From the IMG/VR virus record IMGVR_UViG_3300033489_000513: a DNA stretch of 64,000 nucleotides. One strand, given 5' to 3'. The position numbers were made by a program, and so were the translations under genes. This stretch comes from a virus. Below are positions 3,520 through 57,205 of this stretch, piece after piece. Each line of letters begins with the position of its first letter. The first letter of the stretch is position 1. The notes under the pieces are model-generated. The model had not been told where the DNA came from. It made no database searches and worked only from the letters and a program-made list of their open reading frames with translations.

Positions 3520-4257
3520 TCACACCTTTGGTTTTAATTTGGACTTTGTACATAATAATTCCTGATTTCCAACGATAAATTCTGGGCCGATTCCTTCGAT
3601 ACGAGTTAGCTCATTATCTGGAATATTCCATCCTTTAATGATCTCACCTCTCTTACCCATATGTGTAACATTAGTATTACGAATCAATTCGAAGATAGTC
3701 ATTGGGTCGCCTAATGCATTCAGAAGGTCATAGGAACGTTCTTTGCAAAATCGCAAACCTTGAAGTAACCATAATTGTTCATCCGCGAGAGTCTTAAACT
3801 TTGGACTGGAACGGGCAATAATATGTTCCCCTTCTTTTTTGGGAGTTTGAAGTTGTTTGACAACTGTTCGAAGGAAAAGAGCTGTACCATCCATATCTTT
3901 TACAGGAAGAATAGGGACGCGGAATTTAATCATCACGGTGCATAACGCGCCATAGATCGCCTGAGGGAGAACCCTCGTTTTCGTAAAAGCAGAATCAAAA
4001 TCTTCCAGAAGGAGAATGGGGATTTCATATGCATTCTTTAACCGCCCAATTTCATCAAAGAGACGACCATCAAGAATGGAAGCTGTAAAATCACTTCCCT
4101 TCTTCCGTTCAATTCCCACTCTCATCGAAGGAACGAAGTCGGCAACATCCAGAAGATCATCCGTTTTTACGTTGATTTCAGGATATTTTTTCATCTTCGA
4201 AATCACTGCTAATTCTCGGAAGTCTGCTAAGAGCGTATACATAGGCGTTGTAAGCAT
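3520..4257 (-). CDS. ERCC4-domain (XPF/Mus81/Hef-like) structure-specific nuclease
   Basis: GIERKKGSDF..SILDGRLFDEIGRL catalytic ERKxxxD motif; C-terminal HhH-like IEGIGP. Confidence 0.85.
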   Translation of the reverse strand: MLTTPMYTLLADFRELAVISKMKKYPEINVKTDDLLDVADFVPSMRVGIERKKGSDFTASILDGRLFDEIGRLKNAYEIPILLLEDFDSAFTKTRVLPQAIYGALCTVMIKFRVPILPVKDMDGTALFLRTVVKQLQTPKKEGEHIIARSSPKFKTLADEQLWLLQGLRFCKERSYDLLNALGDPMTIFELIRNTNVTHMGKRGEIIKGWNIPDNELTRIEGIGPEFIVGNQELLCTKSKLKPKV

Positions 4258-7816: not shown

Positions 7817-8500
7817 ATGGATGTTTTGAAAAAATGTCATCATTGTATGGAATATTATTTAGGGCAATTAATGAATCCAATGGCATATTGTCCGAAACCA
7901 GATTGTCAAAAGGTATGGAAGCGAGTTTTAGTTAGTATAATTCATCAAAGATACCATTTAATGGAGGACTTGGATGTTTGGTCTCCTACTTTGAAGGATG
8001 ATTATGGGTTTCCTCGAAGAGTCTGCCGGATTTGTGGGGGACTTCTTCGATATACTAAGAAAGGGCGCGTGTCTCAGTCGAGATATTGTGATGAATGTCG
8101 CGCCAAGGAGGGTGATGGATTATTTCGTAAAATATTTGCTATGTTTGAATGGAATGAAGCTCGCGCTGCATTTATGCGCCAAAAGAGAATTGCGTGGGAT
8201 GGTAAAGATGTTTATGAATGTGAAGGGTGTCACGAATTCTTTCCCGCATCTAAAGTAGATGTGCATCATATCAAACCCGTCCATACTCTCGATGAAACAA
8301 ACTATCGTCTTACGTGGGATCCTTCGAATTTCACGATTCGTTGTGCAAAATGCCATGGTATCGCACATCGAAAAGCGGAGAAGATTTCTCCTTCTGAATT
8401 GTACAAACAACAAATGAGAAAAGTCCACCTTTCATTGGATAGATTCTTGCCTTCAACGCAAGTTTTGAAAGAAATAAAAAAGGAAGAAGCGTCACGATAA
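7817..8500 (+). CDS. HNH endonuclease with Zn fingers
   Basis: CEGC...VDVHHIKPVH...DPSNF..RCAKCHGIAH. Confidence 0.85.
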   Translation: MDVLKKCHHCMEYYLGQLMNPMAYCPKPDCQKVWKRVLVSIIHQRYHLMEDLDVWSPTLKDDYGFPRRVCRICGGLLRYTKKGRVSQSRYCDECRAKEGDGLFRKIFAMFEWNEARAAFMRQKRIAWDGKDVYECEGCHEFFPASKVDVHHIKPVHTLDETNYRLTWDPSNFTIRCAKCHGIAHRKAEKISPSELYKQQMRKVHLSLDRFLPSTQVLKEIKKEEASR

Positions 8501-20610: not shown

Positions 20611-20657
20611 GTTGTGAGAAGGTTTAAATTTACCAAAAAGGATAGATATATGGTTTT

Positions 20658-20879
20658 ATGATTATGATTTGTAAACAATTACAACAAAAACCTCCATTGG
20701 GTCCATCACATCCTGAAGATAAGACTGCCAAAATTCCTGAAAAATGTCCGCTTTGTGGTGCGCCCACGGTTGTAGATTACATTTCTTTAAGTCCCCTAAA
20801 AATTGCTGTTTGGTGTGGAAGCGACAAGAACTCAATAAATGAAGATGAAAATTGCCAGTGGGGATTTGAAATTGAGTGA
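20658..20879 (+). CDS. Zn-ribbon protein
   Basis: CPLCG..WC..C; own class A promoter 20612-20628. Confidence 0.55.
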   Translation: MIMICKQLQQKPPLGPSHPEDKTAKIPEKCPLCGAPTVVDYISLSPLKIAVWCGSDKNSINEDENCQWGFEIE

Positions 20880-21240
20880 TTTACCATACAGAGAATGGTT
20901 AAAACAAACCGAATGGTTTGGAAAGGCAGGAATCATCTTTTCCGATTGCGAATTTTGTTATAAAGAATACAATCATCTTGGAATTATGGTTTGGTGTGGT
21001 ATCCAACAACGAAATGAATGTTCTAATTGTCCAAAATATAAACCGACAGAACCTCAGGATCTCTGTCCTTTCACGCAATATTTCACTGTGGGCTGTCCAT
21101 ATCCGTGTCCTAATATGAGTGATGAAGATTGTCATTTACCCCACGAAGATGCGGCAAAATTGGAAAAGGAACTCGAAAATCTGCCTAAACCTTTTCGTTT
21201 TCGTTCAGTTTATGAACTTGCTTTGAAATGGTCCGATTAA
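20839..21240 (+). CDS. Cys-rich hypothetical protein
   Basis: CEFC, CSNC, CPYPC. Confidence 0.5.
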   Translation: MKMKIASGDLKLSDLPYREWLKQTEWFGKAGIIFSDCEFCYKEYNHLGIMVWCGIQQRNECSNCPKYKPTEPQDLCPFTQYFTVGCPYPCPNMSDEDCHLPHEDAAKLEKELENLPKPFRFRSVYELALKWSD

Positions 21241-21250
21241 GATTCAGGCA

Positions 21251-21327
21251 CGGTTCATCCCCGCACTCAAAATATACAATGCTTTCTCCATTACTTTTCG
21301 GTTCATCCCCGCACATATGGGCGAGAC
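21251..21327 (-). CRISPR. degenerate type I-E-like repeat-spacer-half repeat
   Basis: CGGTTCATCCCCGCAC at 21251-21266 and 21299-21314, 32-nt interval; second copy extends to a 29-nt I-E-like repeat. Confidence 0.4.
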
Positions 21328-21555
21328 CCTAACATCTCGACCTATTTATCCATAACATCGAGATGCATAACCATCGCCTTTGTATGGGGTTCCAGTGTTA
21401 TAGACTGAGGGCATAACCGTATGCCCGCTATCCCTCCCGCGAATGCGTTTGGGACTACCTTTCGGATGATAGATTTTTTGCTTTGTGACAAAGCGAAGAT
21501 AATTCAGGAGTTTTTTCGACTCGTTTTTGAGTTACAATTTTTATATTATTTCCTC

Positions 21556-21885
21556 CTATTGAGGCACTTTAAAGCACGAATTATGTTTTGTAAAACCAAG
21601 GCGTTTGCCGAAATCTTTGGAATATTTTGCGGAGGATGTATTAAATAATATATTTTTAGATTCTCCCGATTCGCTAGCCCATAAGATAAGAAGGAGAAAA
21701 TCCCGCCCGTGTTTTTTATTGGGAATCCACCCAAAGATATCAAAAAACCAAGAATCGTCATCTATCTGCCAATCATCATCGTCATCCGTTACCATCTTAC
21801 AAGTATAACGATCCCACGTCACTTCAGGAAGGTCTTTGCGTAAACCTTTCATAATATCTTGAATAACATAATCAATTTTAGTCAT
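21556..21885 (-). CDS. hypothetical protein
   Basis: 109 aa, starts 19 nt downstream of kt2. Confidence 0.6.
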   Translation of the reverse strand: MTKIDYVIQDIMKGLRKDLPEVTWDRYTCKMVTDDDDDWQIDDDSWFFDIFGWIPNKKHGRDFLLLILWASESGESKNILFNTSSAKYSKDFGKRLGFTKHNSCFKVPQ

Positions 21886-21965: not shown

Positions 21966-21977
21966 AAGCATTGTTAT

Positions 21978-21994
21978 TTGTGAGAATATTTAAA
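21978..21994. promoter_or_regulatory. bidirectional TTGTGAGAATA-TTTAAA promoter
   Basis: TTTAAA is 26 nt from + ATG 22021 and 23 nt from the 5' end of kt2 on the minus strand. Confidence 0.55.
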
Positions 21995-22020
21995 TATTTG
22001 TTCCTAAAAGAGATTATCAT

Positions 22021-35821: not shown

Positions 35822-37033
35822 TTAAGTTATTAAAGGATTGTATGGATACCTAAAAAATTGACGTATGTATTCTCCTATGCCTCGCATTCCCCGCTCGTTG
35901 AAGATATGGCTTAAGAGTTGTTCGTTTATGCCAACTCCCCGTAATCTCTCGGTTCGAATGCCAAGTATGAGAGAAAAAATGCCAAGTATGAGAGAAAAAT
36001 GCTCTAAACTATATATTTCGAAGTGAGGAGTTTCTTGGAGTTGGTTTTGAAAGGCGAGATCCGCAGTTTTTTCTTCCGATTGTTTTGGGGGGAAGAAAAT
36101 ATCAATTTTCGCCTTTGCGGATTCTGGGAGAGCTTGGAGAAAGGCATCATCAAATGTTTCTGTCATAAGATGGTAGGTACTTATGAGCAAATTAACCCGC
36201 GATTGCAACCATTCCACCGGCGCGGTCTCTAACAATTCCCCAATAACTCTTTGTTGGATGCTCTTCGCAGCGGCGGGACATAACTCTAGAAGACAATCTA
36301 AAATCTGTTTTTGCATAAGAGCATTGAATCCAAACGGTAAACCTAATGCAGAATCGGAATATCGGAGAGTGAACATTGCCTCCAAACCCATATCCGCGAT
36401 GCCTGCAACATATGATCGTAATGCCATAAAATGTTCTTCTGGTTCTAAATTCACTTGTTTGTTTTCCGAGGTCTGGCTGCCTTCCAAATTCAAATCCAGG
36501 GAATTACTAGTTTGGGCGATAGTTTCGGGTAATTGTTCGGGGGTAATCTGTGTGATAGCTATATGAACACACCCAACTTCCCGTTCTTTTGCGCTCAATC
36601 CATCTCGCATATAAAGAAGACAATCTTTTTCTAAACATTTGGAAGAAGGCGAATTGTAACCTCTGGAGCAAGGCGAGAACATGTTATCTCTTATGCAACT
36701 ATGAACACAGATATTGGGACGATGAAATACAATTCTAGAGTACATACTAGTACCCCAAGAACGTCTATACACCCGAGCCCCAATCATTATATTCGCTGCG
36801 AAGAGAGAAGGATCTTTGGTCAGTGGAAACCATACTTCCCATTTATAATCACCAAATAGTGCTACTGGTATTTTAGTAGCTATTGGATCCCATCCCCATA
36901 CTCGTTGGTAATATCGTCGTTTCTGCCGCGCGTGAAAGGCGGGAAGGATTCCTTCCTCTGCCTCCTTCCATTTTATCCACAATTCTTTACTGTTATCGAG
37001 TGCAGCTGTCTCAAAAAGTTTTATCACATTCAT
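35822..37033 (-). CDS. hypothetical protein (403 aa)
   Basis: long ORF, Cys cluster mid-protein. Confidence 0.65.
   Translation of the reverse strand: MNVIKLFETAALDNSKELWIKWKEAEEGILPAFHARQKRRYYQRVWGWDPIATKIPVALFGDYKWEVWFPLTKDPSLFAANIMIGARVYRRSWGTSMYSRIVFHRPNICVHSCIRDNMFSPCSRGYNSPSSKCLEKDCLLYMRDGLSAKEREVGCVHIAITQITPEQLPETIAQTSNSLDLNLEGSQTSENKQVNLEPEEHFMALRSYVAGIADMGLEAMFTLRYSDSALGLPFGFNALMQKQILDCLLELCPAAAKSIQQRVIGELLETAPVEWLQSRVNLLISTYHLMTETFDDAFLQALPESAKAKIDIFFPPKQSEEKTADLAFQNQLQETPHFEIYSLEHFSLILGIFSLILGIRTERLRGVGINEQLLSHIFNERGMRGIGEYIRQFFRYPYNPLIT
35957..35998. repeat. 21-bp perfect tandem duplication in coding frame
   Basis: AATGCCAAGTATGAGAGAAAA x2 giving FSLILGI-FSLILGI. Confidence 0.85.
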
Positions 37034-51579: not shown

Positions 51580-51659
51580 TATGTAGAGACTATGCATAGC
51601 TATGTAGAGTCTGTGCATAGCTATGTAGAGCCTGTGCATAGCTATGTAGTGACTATATC
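51580..51659. repeat. 21-bp tandem repeat x3.8
   Basis: TATGTAGAGNCT(A/G)TGCATAGC units. Confidence 0.85.
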
Positions 51660-56720: not shown

Positions 56721-57049
56721 TTTATTTCACTCCAATTTTTTTTTTGATTTTTTTGTGTATTTATTTTTTTTCTGCTCTCGTTTAACCTCTCGAAGAGAGA
56801 TTAAAAGAGAAAAGAAATTAATTGTGGAAATTCACGAATTTAACGCGATAGCCGTTGACGGTCCAAATTAGGACGATTTCGGCGCGGTATTGAATTTCTT
56901 CGTTGCCTTCCGCATCGAAATACCATTCTATCTGCCCATTATAAGGGGAAGTATTGAAGGCACAGATTTTTTTAATTGCTTCGTCATTCGGAGTAGAGGG
57001 GTTCCGCGATGATGCCAGCGGCGGCTGCCTTGGTTTTCTCGAACATAAG

Positions 57050-57205
57050 TTTCATCTCCCCCCCCGCGAAATGCGGGGAGGTCTGGGAGAAAAAATTACA
57101 AGAGAACCAGCATAGCCCGCACTGAAGCGGGGCGTGGTTTGCTGGAGTTTCGGGGACATTTTTTTCATCTCCCCCCCCGCGAAATGCGGGGGGGTCTGGG
57201 AGAAA
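57050..57205. repeat. 43-bp GC-rich hairpin direct repeat x2 (57050-57092, 57163-57205)
   Basis: TTTCATCTCCCCCCCCGCGAAATGCGGGG(A/G)GGTCTGGGAGAAA, one mismatch. Confidence 0.85.

What the first reader, a model, noticed from the sequence alone, without database searches (positions are those of the whole stretch)
21251..21327. Solitary degenerate type I-E-like repeat-spacer-half-repeat in a non-coding gap
SEEN: CGGTTCATCCCCGCAC occurs twice with exactly 32 nt between. The second copy extends to CGGTTCATCCCCGCACATATGGGCGAGAC (29 nt; 23/29 identical to the I-E-type repeat CGGTTCATCCCCACGCATGTGGGGAACAC as I recall it). On the minus strand this gives a 5' handle AUGAACCG + 32-nt spacer but a truncated 3' hairpin. 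No cas operon is present, only a distant Cas4-like gene. INFERENCE: a viral mini-array, a crRNA mimic (Racr-like anti-CRISPR) or a CreA/CreR-like regulator that borrows host Cascade.
Basis: partly seen in the sequence, partly recalled or inferred. Interest (0 to 1): 0.6.

Follow-up and report, generated by a model that had tools for sequence, protein, structure and literature searches.

The report
Orphan CRISPR guide unit inside viral insertion
A soil virus of archaeal type carries a small, partly decayed piece of a type I-E CRISPR array (one 32-letter guide between two repeat remnants) inside a 316-base insertion; it may still supply one guide RNA, but no target, relative or transcript was found, so whether it works is open.

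Summary
CGGTTCATCCCCGCAC occurs exactly twice in the window (21251-21266 and 21299-21314), with 32 nt between the copies. This 16-mer is letter for letter the last 16 nt (3' stem arm plus 8-nt 5' handle) of real type I-E repeats in fetched arrays.

New here: the unit lies in a 316-bp indel (21252-21567) flanked by a 6-bp direct repeat, AGGCAC. The only relative (L019) lacks it. Removing it restores a gapless match and the same stop codon of a conserved 109-aa gene. On the minus strand the order is: structured GC-rich segment, degenerate repeat, 32-nt spacer, half repeat. Neither copy keeps the canonical Cas6e hairpin; a long-range substitute stem is predicted but is only weakly significant.

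No spacer target was found in the window, L019, IMG/VR, JGI metagenomes or GenBank phages. No homologue of the unit was found. No RNA run was listed, so expression is untested.

My best reading (about 0.4) is an orphan crRNA-like unit feeding a type I-E Cascade. An inert relic is almost as likely (about 0.33).

Earlier scan notes place a Cas3-less I-E Cascade on the same contig; I could not verify this. The scan has already found cas-less I-E mini-arrays on other viral DNA.

The parts
21251..21266 (-). Half repeat (downstream copy in crRNA sense): GTGCGGGGATGAACCG, which is the 3' stem arm plus the 8-nt 5'-handle sequence of a type I-E repeat. The first 13 nt of a full repeat are absent.
   Evidence: Identical to the last 16 nt of real I-E repeats. 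The 13 nt before it match R1's 13-nt part at only 3 of 13 positions (read from the sequence).
21267..21298 (-). 32-nt spacer-like segment (crRNA sense AAAAGTAATGGAGAAAGCATTGTATATTTTGA), the canonical type I-E spacer length.
   Evidence: No target in the window or L019, IMG/VR, JGI metagenomes or GenBank phages (E of 3 or more only).
21299..21327 (-). Degenerate 29-nt repeat (upstream copy, psiR1-like): GTCTCGCCCATAT + GTGCGGGGATGAACCG. The last 16 nt are canonical. The first 13 nt match 8 of 13 positions of the L001 repeat, so the canonical hairpin is broken.
21328..21470 (-). GC-rich (48%) structured leader-like segment. It contains CCCCAUAC (21389-21382), which is predicted to pair with the GUGCGGGG arm of the degenerate repeat.
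   Evidence: z about -2.7 to -3.0; pair probabilities 0.89-0.99; GC; 4% of shuffles pair as well. No Rfam family. No similarity to leaders of real arrays.
21471..21561 (.). AT-rich end of the insertion. It has four T5-T6 runs on the + strand (21474-21542) and none on the minus strand, and supplies the new stop codon (21556-21558) of the 109-aa gene.
21246..21251 (.). Left copy of the 6-bp direct repeat AGGCAC that flanks the 316-bp indel.
21562..21567 (.). Right copy of the 6-bp direct repeat AGGCAC.
21556..21885 (-). Conserved 109-aa gene (75% identical to the 112-aa gene of L019). The indel replaces its last codons: ...FKVPQ* now, ...FKVPES* in the reconstructed empty site, ...KKVPAP* in L019.
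21978..21995 (-). Nearest canonical viral promoter on the crRNA-sense strand (TATA box followed by TTCTCACAA). It is the likely source of read-through transcription into the unit; this is inferred.

Best explanation
The element is an orphan, partly degenerate type I-E mini-CRISPR. It entered this virus as part of a 316-bp insertion (21252-21567, flanked by the 6-bp direct repeat AGGCAC) at the 3' end of a conserved 109-aa gene, in a variable junction between convergent genes.

On the minus strand it reads: an AT-rich end; a GC-rich folded leader-like segment; a repeat whose last 16 nt are canonical and whose first 13 nt are degenerate (as in the psiR1 of CreA/CreR-type elements); a 32-nt spacer; and a second copy of the same 16 nt.

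Inferred mechanism:
- The minus strand is transcribed by read-through from the promoter at 21978-21995. There is no oligo-T stop on that strand.
- The canonical 3' arm GUGCGGGG pairs with a distal CCCCAUAC to rebuild a Cas6e-like stem base.
- Cleavage after GGGG would give an RNA with the authentic 8-nt handle AUGAACCG and a full-length 32-nt guide.
- This RNA would load onto a type I-E Cascade: the virus's own, if the earlier scan notes are right, otherwise a host's.
- Because the guide is full length, it would most likely be aimed at a competing mobile element.

Shown: the CRISPR origin, the anatomy and the indel. Inferred: transcription, processing, loading and target.

The 16-nt duplication around a 32-nt insert also has the form expected of a spacer integration whose leader-side cut fell inside the degenerate repeat. 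This concerns origin only and is inference.
For: - Both 16-mers are exact, and the sequence is identical to the end of real I-E repeats.
- The spacing is exactly 32 nt.
- All differences from real repeats fall in the 13-nt 5' part and none in the two 16-nt copies. This is the pattern described for psiR1 of CreA (PMC9458426) and CreR.
- The stem between GUGCGGGG and CCCCAUAC is predicted with P of 0.89-0.99.
- The region folds better than shuffles, z about -2.7.
- The minus strand has no T run of 5 or more between 21741 and 21100, and a canonical promoter lies upstream.
- Type I-E Cascade can carry crRNA-like RNAs with almost no 3' repeat part: CracrIE1 has a 5' handle, a 24-nt spacer and 4 nt of the next repeat.
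- The region is contiguous in an independent Logan assembly of the same soil sample.
- The indel is flanked by a 6-bp repeat, and removing it restores the L019 arrangement.
Against: - Neither copy has a canonical hairpin.
- 4% of shuffled upstream sequences pair the GGGG as well as observed, and 28% reach P of 0.8 or more.
- The downstream copy lacks the 3'-handle nucleotides that CreR-type psiR2 conserves.
- No spacer target was found anywhere searched.
- No promoter of the virus's own type lies inside the insertion.
- On the + strand the unit lies in the 3' part of the 73/133-aa transcription unit, ahead of four oligo-T runs, so the antisense strand may be the one mainly transcribed.
- The only relative lacks the element.
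- No homologue exists to test conservation or covariation.
- I could not verify any Cascade on this contig.
Confidence: 0.4

Rival explanations
1. It is an inert relic. A fragment of a type I-E array (flank, end repeat, one spacer, part of the next repeat) was captured during repair or recombination at a variable junction and is decaying. No Cas protein uses it.
For: The canonical hairpin is lost in both copies. No target was found. There is no canonical promoter in the insert. The relative lacks it. A second indel lies directly beside it, marking an indel hotspot. The substitute hairpin is only weakly significant.
Against: The differences are not spread as neutral decay predicts: 5 in 13 nt against 0 in 32 nt. 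The part that is missing from the second copy (its 5' 13 nt) is not what simple truncation of a captured fragment would remove. The 32-nt spacing is exact.
Confidence: 0.33
2. It is a repeat decoy or antisense anti-CRISPR, Racr-like in effect. Either the minus-strand RNA offers two Cas5/Cas7-binding handles without a usable hairpin and ties up Cascade subunits, or the + strand RNA (the 3' part of the 73/133-aa transcription unit) carries two copies of CGGUUCAUCCCCGCAC. That sequence is complementary to 16 nt of every pre-crRNA repeat and could block hairpin formation and Cas6e cutting.
For: The + strand unit ends with four oligo-T runs just after the element. In the centroid fold the first + strand 16-mer is unpaired. 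Viral solitary repeats are shown to inhibit I-E systems (PMC10651486). Two small ORFan proteins lie immediately upstream, the position where acr genes sit beside racr genes.
Against: Racrs mimic the whole repeat in sequence and secondary structure; here the hairpin is missing. A 32-nt spacer is not needed for a decoy. If the virus has its own I-E Cascade with this repeat, the RNA would inhibit it too. I know of no precedent for an antisense-repeat anti-CRISPR (from memory).
Confidence: 0.1
3. It is a CreR/Cracr-type regulator. The crRNA-like RNA guides Cascade by partial, PAM-flanked complementarity to a promoter (a cas promoter or a CreT-like toxin) and represses it without cleavage.
For: The upstream repeat shows the psiR1 pattern: handle conserved, remainder degenerate. 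Viral Cracr units for type I-E exist.
Against: Type I-E CreR/Cracr pseudo-spacers are short (21-24 nt; 15 consecutive matching nt), whereas this one is 32 nt. psiR2 does not keep the 3'-handle nucleotides. No PAM-flanked seed match exists in the window. The cas promoter itself lies outside the window and could not be examined.
Confidence: 0.1
4. It is not CRISPR-related. The two 16-mers are binding sites or a local duplication that resembles an I-E repeat by chance.
For: Single chance copies of the 16-mer are common in very large databases.
Against: A close exact 16-nt repeat arose in 0.5% of simulated windows. It is an exact match to a specific repeat family, has the canonical 32-nt gap, and shows an 8/13 continuation of the repeat.
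Confidence: 0.03

Closest known systems
Virus-borne mini-CRISPR arrays (portogloboviruses SPV1/SPV2, Medvedeva et al. 2019; phage mini-arrays, Faure et al. 2019). Both cited from memory and via earlier scan notes; not read here.
   Same: It is carried by a virus with no adjacent cas genes. It has one spacer of canonical length between repeat-derived sequences and lies in a variable region.
   Different: Here the downstream repeat is only the last 16 nt and the upstream one has lost its hairpin arm. No matching protospacer in a related virus was found. The unit sits within a discrete 316-bp indel flanked by a 6-bp direct repeat.
CreA/CreR crRNA-like regulators and their viral copies, Cracr (bioRxiv 10.1101/2023.03.10.532045; 10.1101/2024.10.29.618823; PMC9458426)
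   Same: It is a degenerate two-repeat mini-CRISPR. The upstream repeat keeps the 8 handle nucleotides while the Cas6-binding part has diverged. It is located in a virus, as Cracr is.
   Different: The spacer is 32 nt rather than about 21-24 nt. The downstream repeat keeps the handle and not the 3'-handle part, the reverse of psiR2. No promoter target has been identified.
Racr / solitary repeat units (Camara-Wilpert et al. 2023, PMC10651486)
   Same: It is repeat-derived RNA-coding DNA in an intergenic region of a virus, of subtype I-E, next to small genes of unknown function.
   Different: Racrs resemble the full repeat in sequence and fold and are solitary. This has two partial copies with a spacer, so SRUFinder's own rule would call it a mini-array, and it has no canonical hairpin.
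Non-canonical spacer integration creating new repeat-spacer units (Nivala et al. 2018; two-ruler model of type I-E repeat duplication, Goren et al. 2016). Both cited from memory.
   Same: An insert of spacer length is flanked by a duplicated stretch of repeat.
   Different: The duplicated stretch is 16 nt, not about 28-29 nt. No cas1-cas2 is known on this contig. This bears on origin, not on function.

Membership tests
Type I-E CRISPR repeat (sequence family) | A 29-nt repeat ending in ...GCGGGGAT(A/G)AACCG, giving an 8-nt 5' handle | tested here: met
   Both copies carry GTGCGGGGATGAACCG, identical to the end of real repeats in more than 20 fetched arrays.
Type I-E CRISPR repeat (sequence family) | An internal stem-loop (CCCCGC...GCGGGG) recognised by Cas6e | tested here: not met
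   The 5' arm is mutated in the 29-nt copy and absent from the 16-nt copy. Only a long-range substitute stem is predicted, and it is weakly significant.
CRISPR array / mini-array | Two or more full repeats at regular period (61 nt for I-E) flanking spacers of about 32 nt | tested here: inconclusive
   The spacer length of 32 nt is met. The period is 48 nt because the second repeat is a 16-nt half.
Virus-borne mini-array used in inter-viral conflict | The spacer matches a related virus or other mobile element | tested here: not met
   No match in L019, the window, IMG/VR, JGI metagenomes (exact patterns only) or GenBank phages. The database searches were exact-pattern or short BLAST searches, so diverged targets could be missed.
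CreR / Cracr crRNA-like regulators | psiR1 conserves the 5'-handle nucleotides while the rest degenerates | tested here: met
   16 of 16 conserved at the 3' end and 8 of 13 at the 5' end, set against the descriptions.
CreR / Cracr crRNA-like regulators | psiR2 conserves the 3'-handle nucleotides | tested here: not met
   The downstream copy lacks the first 13 nt of the repeat, set.
CreR / Cracr crRNA-like regulators | The pseudo-spacer is partially complementary to a PAM-flanked site at a cas or toxin promoter | not testable with these tools
   No seed match in the window. The reported cas operon lies outside the window and its DNA could not be fetched.
Racr / solitary repeat unit | A single repeat-like unit similar to the host repeat in sequence and secondary structure, with no second repeat nearby | tested here: not met
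   There are two copies 48 nt apart and the hairpin is not conserved. Criteria as described.
Transposable element insertion | A target-site duplication together with terminal inverted repeats or a transposase | tested here: inconclusive
   A 6-bp direct repeat flanks the indel. The element ends are not inverted repeats (read from the sequence) and there is no credible ORF inside. Microhomology-mediated insertion or deletion fits equally well.

The most novel reading that the evidence does not exclude
The 316-bp insertion is a self-contained, movable 'guide cassette' for the virus's own Cas3-less, nuclease-fused type I-E Cascade, which earlier notes report on this contig. In this reading, a split repeat whose hairpin is rebuilt over a 67-nt insert lets Cas6e release one handle-bearing guide far from the cas genes. 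The 16-nt duplication around the 32-nt spacer would record a spacer integration whose leader-side cut fell inside a degenerate repeat. That would be a natural failure of the two-ruler mechanism, in an archaeal-type virus carrying a bacterial-type repeat.
Probability: 0.1. Interest if true: 0.75.

Novelty: new variant of a known kind. Interest (0 to 1): 0.42.

Why it matters
Viral mini-arrays, repeat decoys and crRNA-like regulators are known. Nearly all described cases come from bacteria and their phages, or from Sulfolobales viruses, and keep at least one processable repeat.

This unit would be unusual in three ways if it is active:
- It sits on an archaeal-type virus (PCNA, Thg1, TFIIB-type ribbon, TrmB) but has a repeat end identical to those of proteobacterial type I-E arrays.
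- Both copies keep only the handle plus 3' arm.
- It arrived as a discrete insertion.

If it is active, type I-E guides can be produced from repeats without the canonical hairpin. It would also mean that guide units can move separately from cas genes. If it is a relic, it still records traffic of CRISPR fragments into a viral hypervariable junction.

Tried and rejected
- **Rfam:** no family at gathering score in the window, and only chance-level hits around the element at E up to 10. No tRNA or tmRNA.
- **Relatives of the locus:** none in GenBank phages or plasmids. IMG/VR had no relative of the 717-aa or 133-aa proteins. It had two distant relatives of the 109-aa gene with no repeat-like element downstream.
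- **The architecture 16-mer, N28-36, 16-mer:** absent from JGI metagenomes.
- **Spacer targets:** none. A 15/19 resemblance of the spacer to the promoter region at 21966-21984 (I3) is at chance level; the gapped local score is no better than for shuffled spacers. The idea that the spacer targets its own empty site in L019 (self-homing) was tested and is not supported.
- **Leader similarity to real type I-E arrays:** none.
- **Apparent L019 matches to CACATAT and GATGATAGAT inside the element:** rejected, because protein alignment places that L019 stretch opposite window 21556-21600.
- **Reaching the rest of the contig to check the reported cas operon:** failed. No genome is held, the ENA file is too large, the JGI copy is not on record, and word look-ups found nothing.
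- **Sequencing runs:** no RNA holder listed. The two DNA runs come from one soil sample that may be the source of this contig. Their contigs show no variant lacking the insertion.
- **AlphaFold model of the 133-aa neighbour:** unusable, pLDDT 37.
- **Bacterial-type promoter/terminator scan:** uninformative for an archaeal-type virus.
- **CCCCGC...GCGGGG hairpins at 57062 and 57175:** examined and set aside as unrelated because they have no handle.

Full report
**Observation.** The + strand reads ...GATTAAGATTCAGGCA CGGTTCATCCCCGCAC [32 nt] CGGTTCATCCCCGCAC ATATGGGCGAGAC.... The 16-mer occurs at 21251-21266 and 21299-21314, 48 nt start to start. With up to three mismatches allowed it occurs nowhere else on either strand of the window. 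An exact 16-nt direct repeat within 100 nt appeared in 0.5% of 200 Markov-simulated windows.

**Is it CRISPR-derived?** Scanning IMG/VR and one genome per prokaryotic species for the 16-mer returned many true arrays with 61-nt period. Their 29-nt repeat begins, in this orientation, with exactly these 16 nt: CGGTTCATCCCCGCAC-NNN-GCGGGGAAC-AC.
- In crRNA sense the 16-mer is GTGCGGGGATGAACCG, the 3' arm of the repeat hairpin plus the 8-nt 5' handle.
- All arrays with the exact 16-mer in the rows returned were from high-GC bacteria, mostly Pseudomonadota.
- Single copies in other genomes occur at the frequency expected by chance in databases of that size.
- The second copy continues as ATATGGGCGAGAC, which matches 8 of 13 positions of the L001 repeat, giving 24/29 overall. 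The 13 nt next to the first copy show no such similarity.
- Both copies therefore keep the 3' arm and handle perfectly. The 5' arm is mutated in one copy and missing from the other.
- Rfam finds no family here.

**Context.** The window is part of a 145-kb soil-metagenome contig. It has PCNA, Thg1, an ERCC4 nuclease, a T4-type RNA ligase, a TFIIB-type zinc ribbon, TrmB and TnpB, which is an archaeal-virus-like gene set. About 40 window ORFs scanned against Pfam gave no Cas family.

The only relative of this neighbourhood in 5.8 billion proteins is an 8.9-kb JGI contig, L019, about 76% identical in DNA. In L019 the 717-aa gene and a 112-aa minus-strand gene converge with 25 bp between them. The window has two extra segments at that junction:
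- 20611-21226, carrying two small Cys-rich ORFan genes.
- 21252-21567.

Deleting 21252-21567 gives a gapless alignment to L019 across the junction. It also restores a C-terminus (...FKVPES*) of the same length as L019's (...KKVPAP*), ending at the same TAA. The 316-bp segment is flanked by the direct repeat AGGCAC (21246-21251 and 21562-21567). Insertion in the window's lineage is the simpler reading. A deletion between the 6-bp repeats in the L019 lineage cannot be excluded with two genomes. The segment is contiguous in an independent Logan assembly of the same sample, with no variant forms.

**Anatomy of the 316 bp, minus strand (crRNA sense).**
- An AT-rich end (21567-21471, GC 32%) that supplies the gene's new stop codon.
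- A GC-rich folded segment (21470-21328, GC 48%). The 172 nt from 21299 to 21470 are at 51% GC, in the top 2% of windows of that size in this genome.
- The degenerate repeat (21327-21299).
- The 32-nt spacer (21298-21267).
- The half repeat (21266-21251), whose last base overlaps the flanking direct repeat.

The region folds better than shuffles on both strands, z of -2.7 and -3.0. In the minus-strand RNA the arm GUGCGGGG of the degenerate repeat pairs with CCCCAUAC at 21389-21382, with probability 0.89-0.99. This forms the base of an 83-nt composite hairpin with four C-G pairs directly before AUGAACCG, as in a Cas6e substrate. The support is modest: 4% of dinucleotide shuffles of the upstream 106 nt pair the GGGG as well, and 28% reach 0.8.

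**Transcription (inferred only).** The virus's promoter element, a TATA box followed directly by TTCTCACAA, is strongly over-represented: 90 hits against 26 expected. The insertion contains no canonical copy.
- The nearest copy on the minus strand is at 21978-21995, ahead of a small RNA and the 109-aa gene. The minus strand has no T run of 5 or more from 21741 down to 21100, so read-through into the unit is plausible.
- The + strand carries four T5-T6 runs at 21474-21542. Transcripts of the two Cys-rich genes would therefore cross the unit in antisense and stop there.
- No RNA run was listed for this DNA, which says nothing either way.

**Target and homologue searches.**
- The spacer has no match or PAM-flanked seed match in the window or L019.
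- No exact-pattern hit was found in IMG/VR or JGI metagenomes.
- Only chance-level hits were found in GenBank phages.
- The architecture 16-mer, N28-36, 16-mer is absent from JGI metagenomes.
- The insertion has no match in plasmids or phages, and no resemblance to leaders of real type I-E arrays.

**Interpretation.** The CRISPR origin is secure; the function is not.

The distribution of changes favours a still-usable crRNA-like unit. There are none in 2 x 16 nt and five in the 13-nt Cas6-binding part. That is the pattern reported for psiR1 of CreA and of type I-E CreR. In addition, the spacer has the exact type I-E length, and type I-E Cascade tolerates crRNA-like RNAs with almost no 3' repeat part (CracrIE1).

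Several points count against this: the missing canonical hairpin, a downstream copy that keeps the opposite part from psiR2, the absence of any target, the lack of a dedicated promoter, and absence from the only relative.

My estimates are:
- functional guide unit, about 0.4;
- inert relic, about 0.33;
- decoy or antisense anti-CRISPR, about 0.1;
- CreR/Cracr-type regulator, about 0.1;
- chance, about 0.03.

The pair 'full repeat, 32 nt, last 16 nt of the repeat' also has the form of a spacer-length insert with a 16-nt duplication. That could arise if the leader-side integration cut fell inside a repeat whose first anchor motif had decayed. This is an inference about origin only.

**Earlier notes of this scan (unverified by me).** The same contig is said to carry a Cas3-less cas8e-cas11-cas7-cas5-cas6e operon with a nuclease domain fused to Cas11, flanked by an array and a one-spacer mini-array, about 27-33 kb before the window start. 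If true, the unit need not borrow a host Cascade. The decisive comparison, repeat and leader of those arrays against this unit, is straightforward, but I had no access to that DNA. The scan has also reported cas-less type I-E mini-arrays on other viral genomes, so the kind is not new to it.

**Verdict.** This is a real, CRISPR-derived, single-spacer unit in a discrete viral indel. It is an unusual variant of a known kind, and whether it works is unresolved.

Noticed in passing
window 20611-21226: A second indel relative to L019 lies directly beside the first. It carries two overlapping small Cys-rich ORFan genes (73 aa, 20658-20879; 133 aa, 20839-21240) with their own TATA box near 20622. Small Cys-rich proteins in hypervariable regions of soil Asgard viruses have been likened to homing/restriction endonucleases (PMC11529989). 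My single-sequence fold of the 133-aa protein was unusable.
   Followed up: partly
window 20612-20633 (minus strand): A canonical viral promoter (aaatttaaacc-TTCTCACAA) sits at the left edge of that indel. It points antisense into the 3' end of the 717-aa gene, and no obvious gene follows it.
   Followed up: no
window 57004-57092 and 57117-57205: Two copies (113-nt period, 76% identical overall) of an element with an identical core, TTTCATCTCCCCCCCCGCGAAATGCGGGG, that contains a perfect CCCCGC/GCGGGG hairpin. On the minus strand the hairpin lies directly before GGAGATGAAA, a possible ribosome-binding site plus start codon. It is not type I-E-like because it has no handle.
   Followed up: partly
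whole window: TTCTCACAA, directly preceded by a TATA box, occurs 90 times with up to 1 mismatch, against 26 expected. This confirms a dominant virus-specific promoter element.
   Followed up: partly
window 35957-35999 and 51593-51650: Exact tandem direct repeats with a 21-nt period. Not examined further.
   Followed up: no
window 7817-8500 (+), 3520-4257 (-), 29871-31388 (-): A free-standing HNH endonuclease gene, an ERCC4-type nuclease gene, and a DUF2828/DUF7788/VWA (Ro60-like) gene.
   Followed up: no
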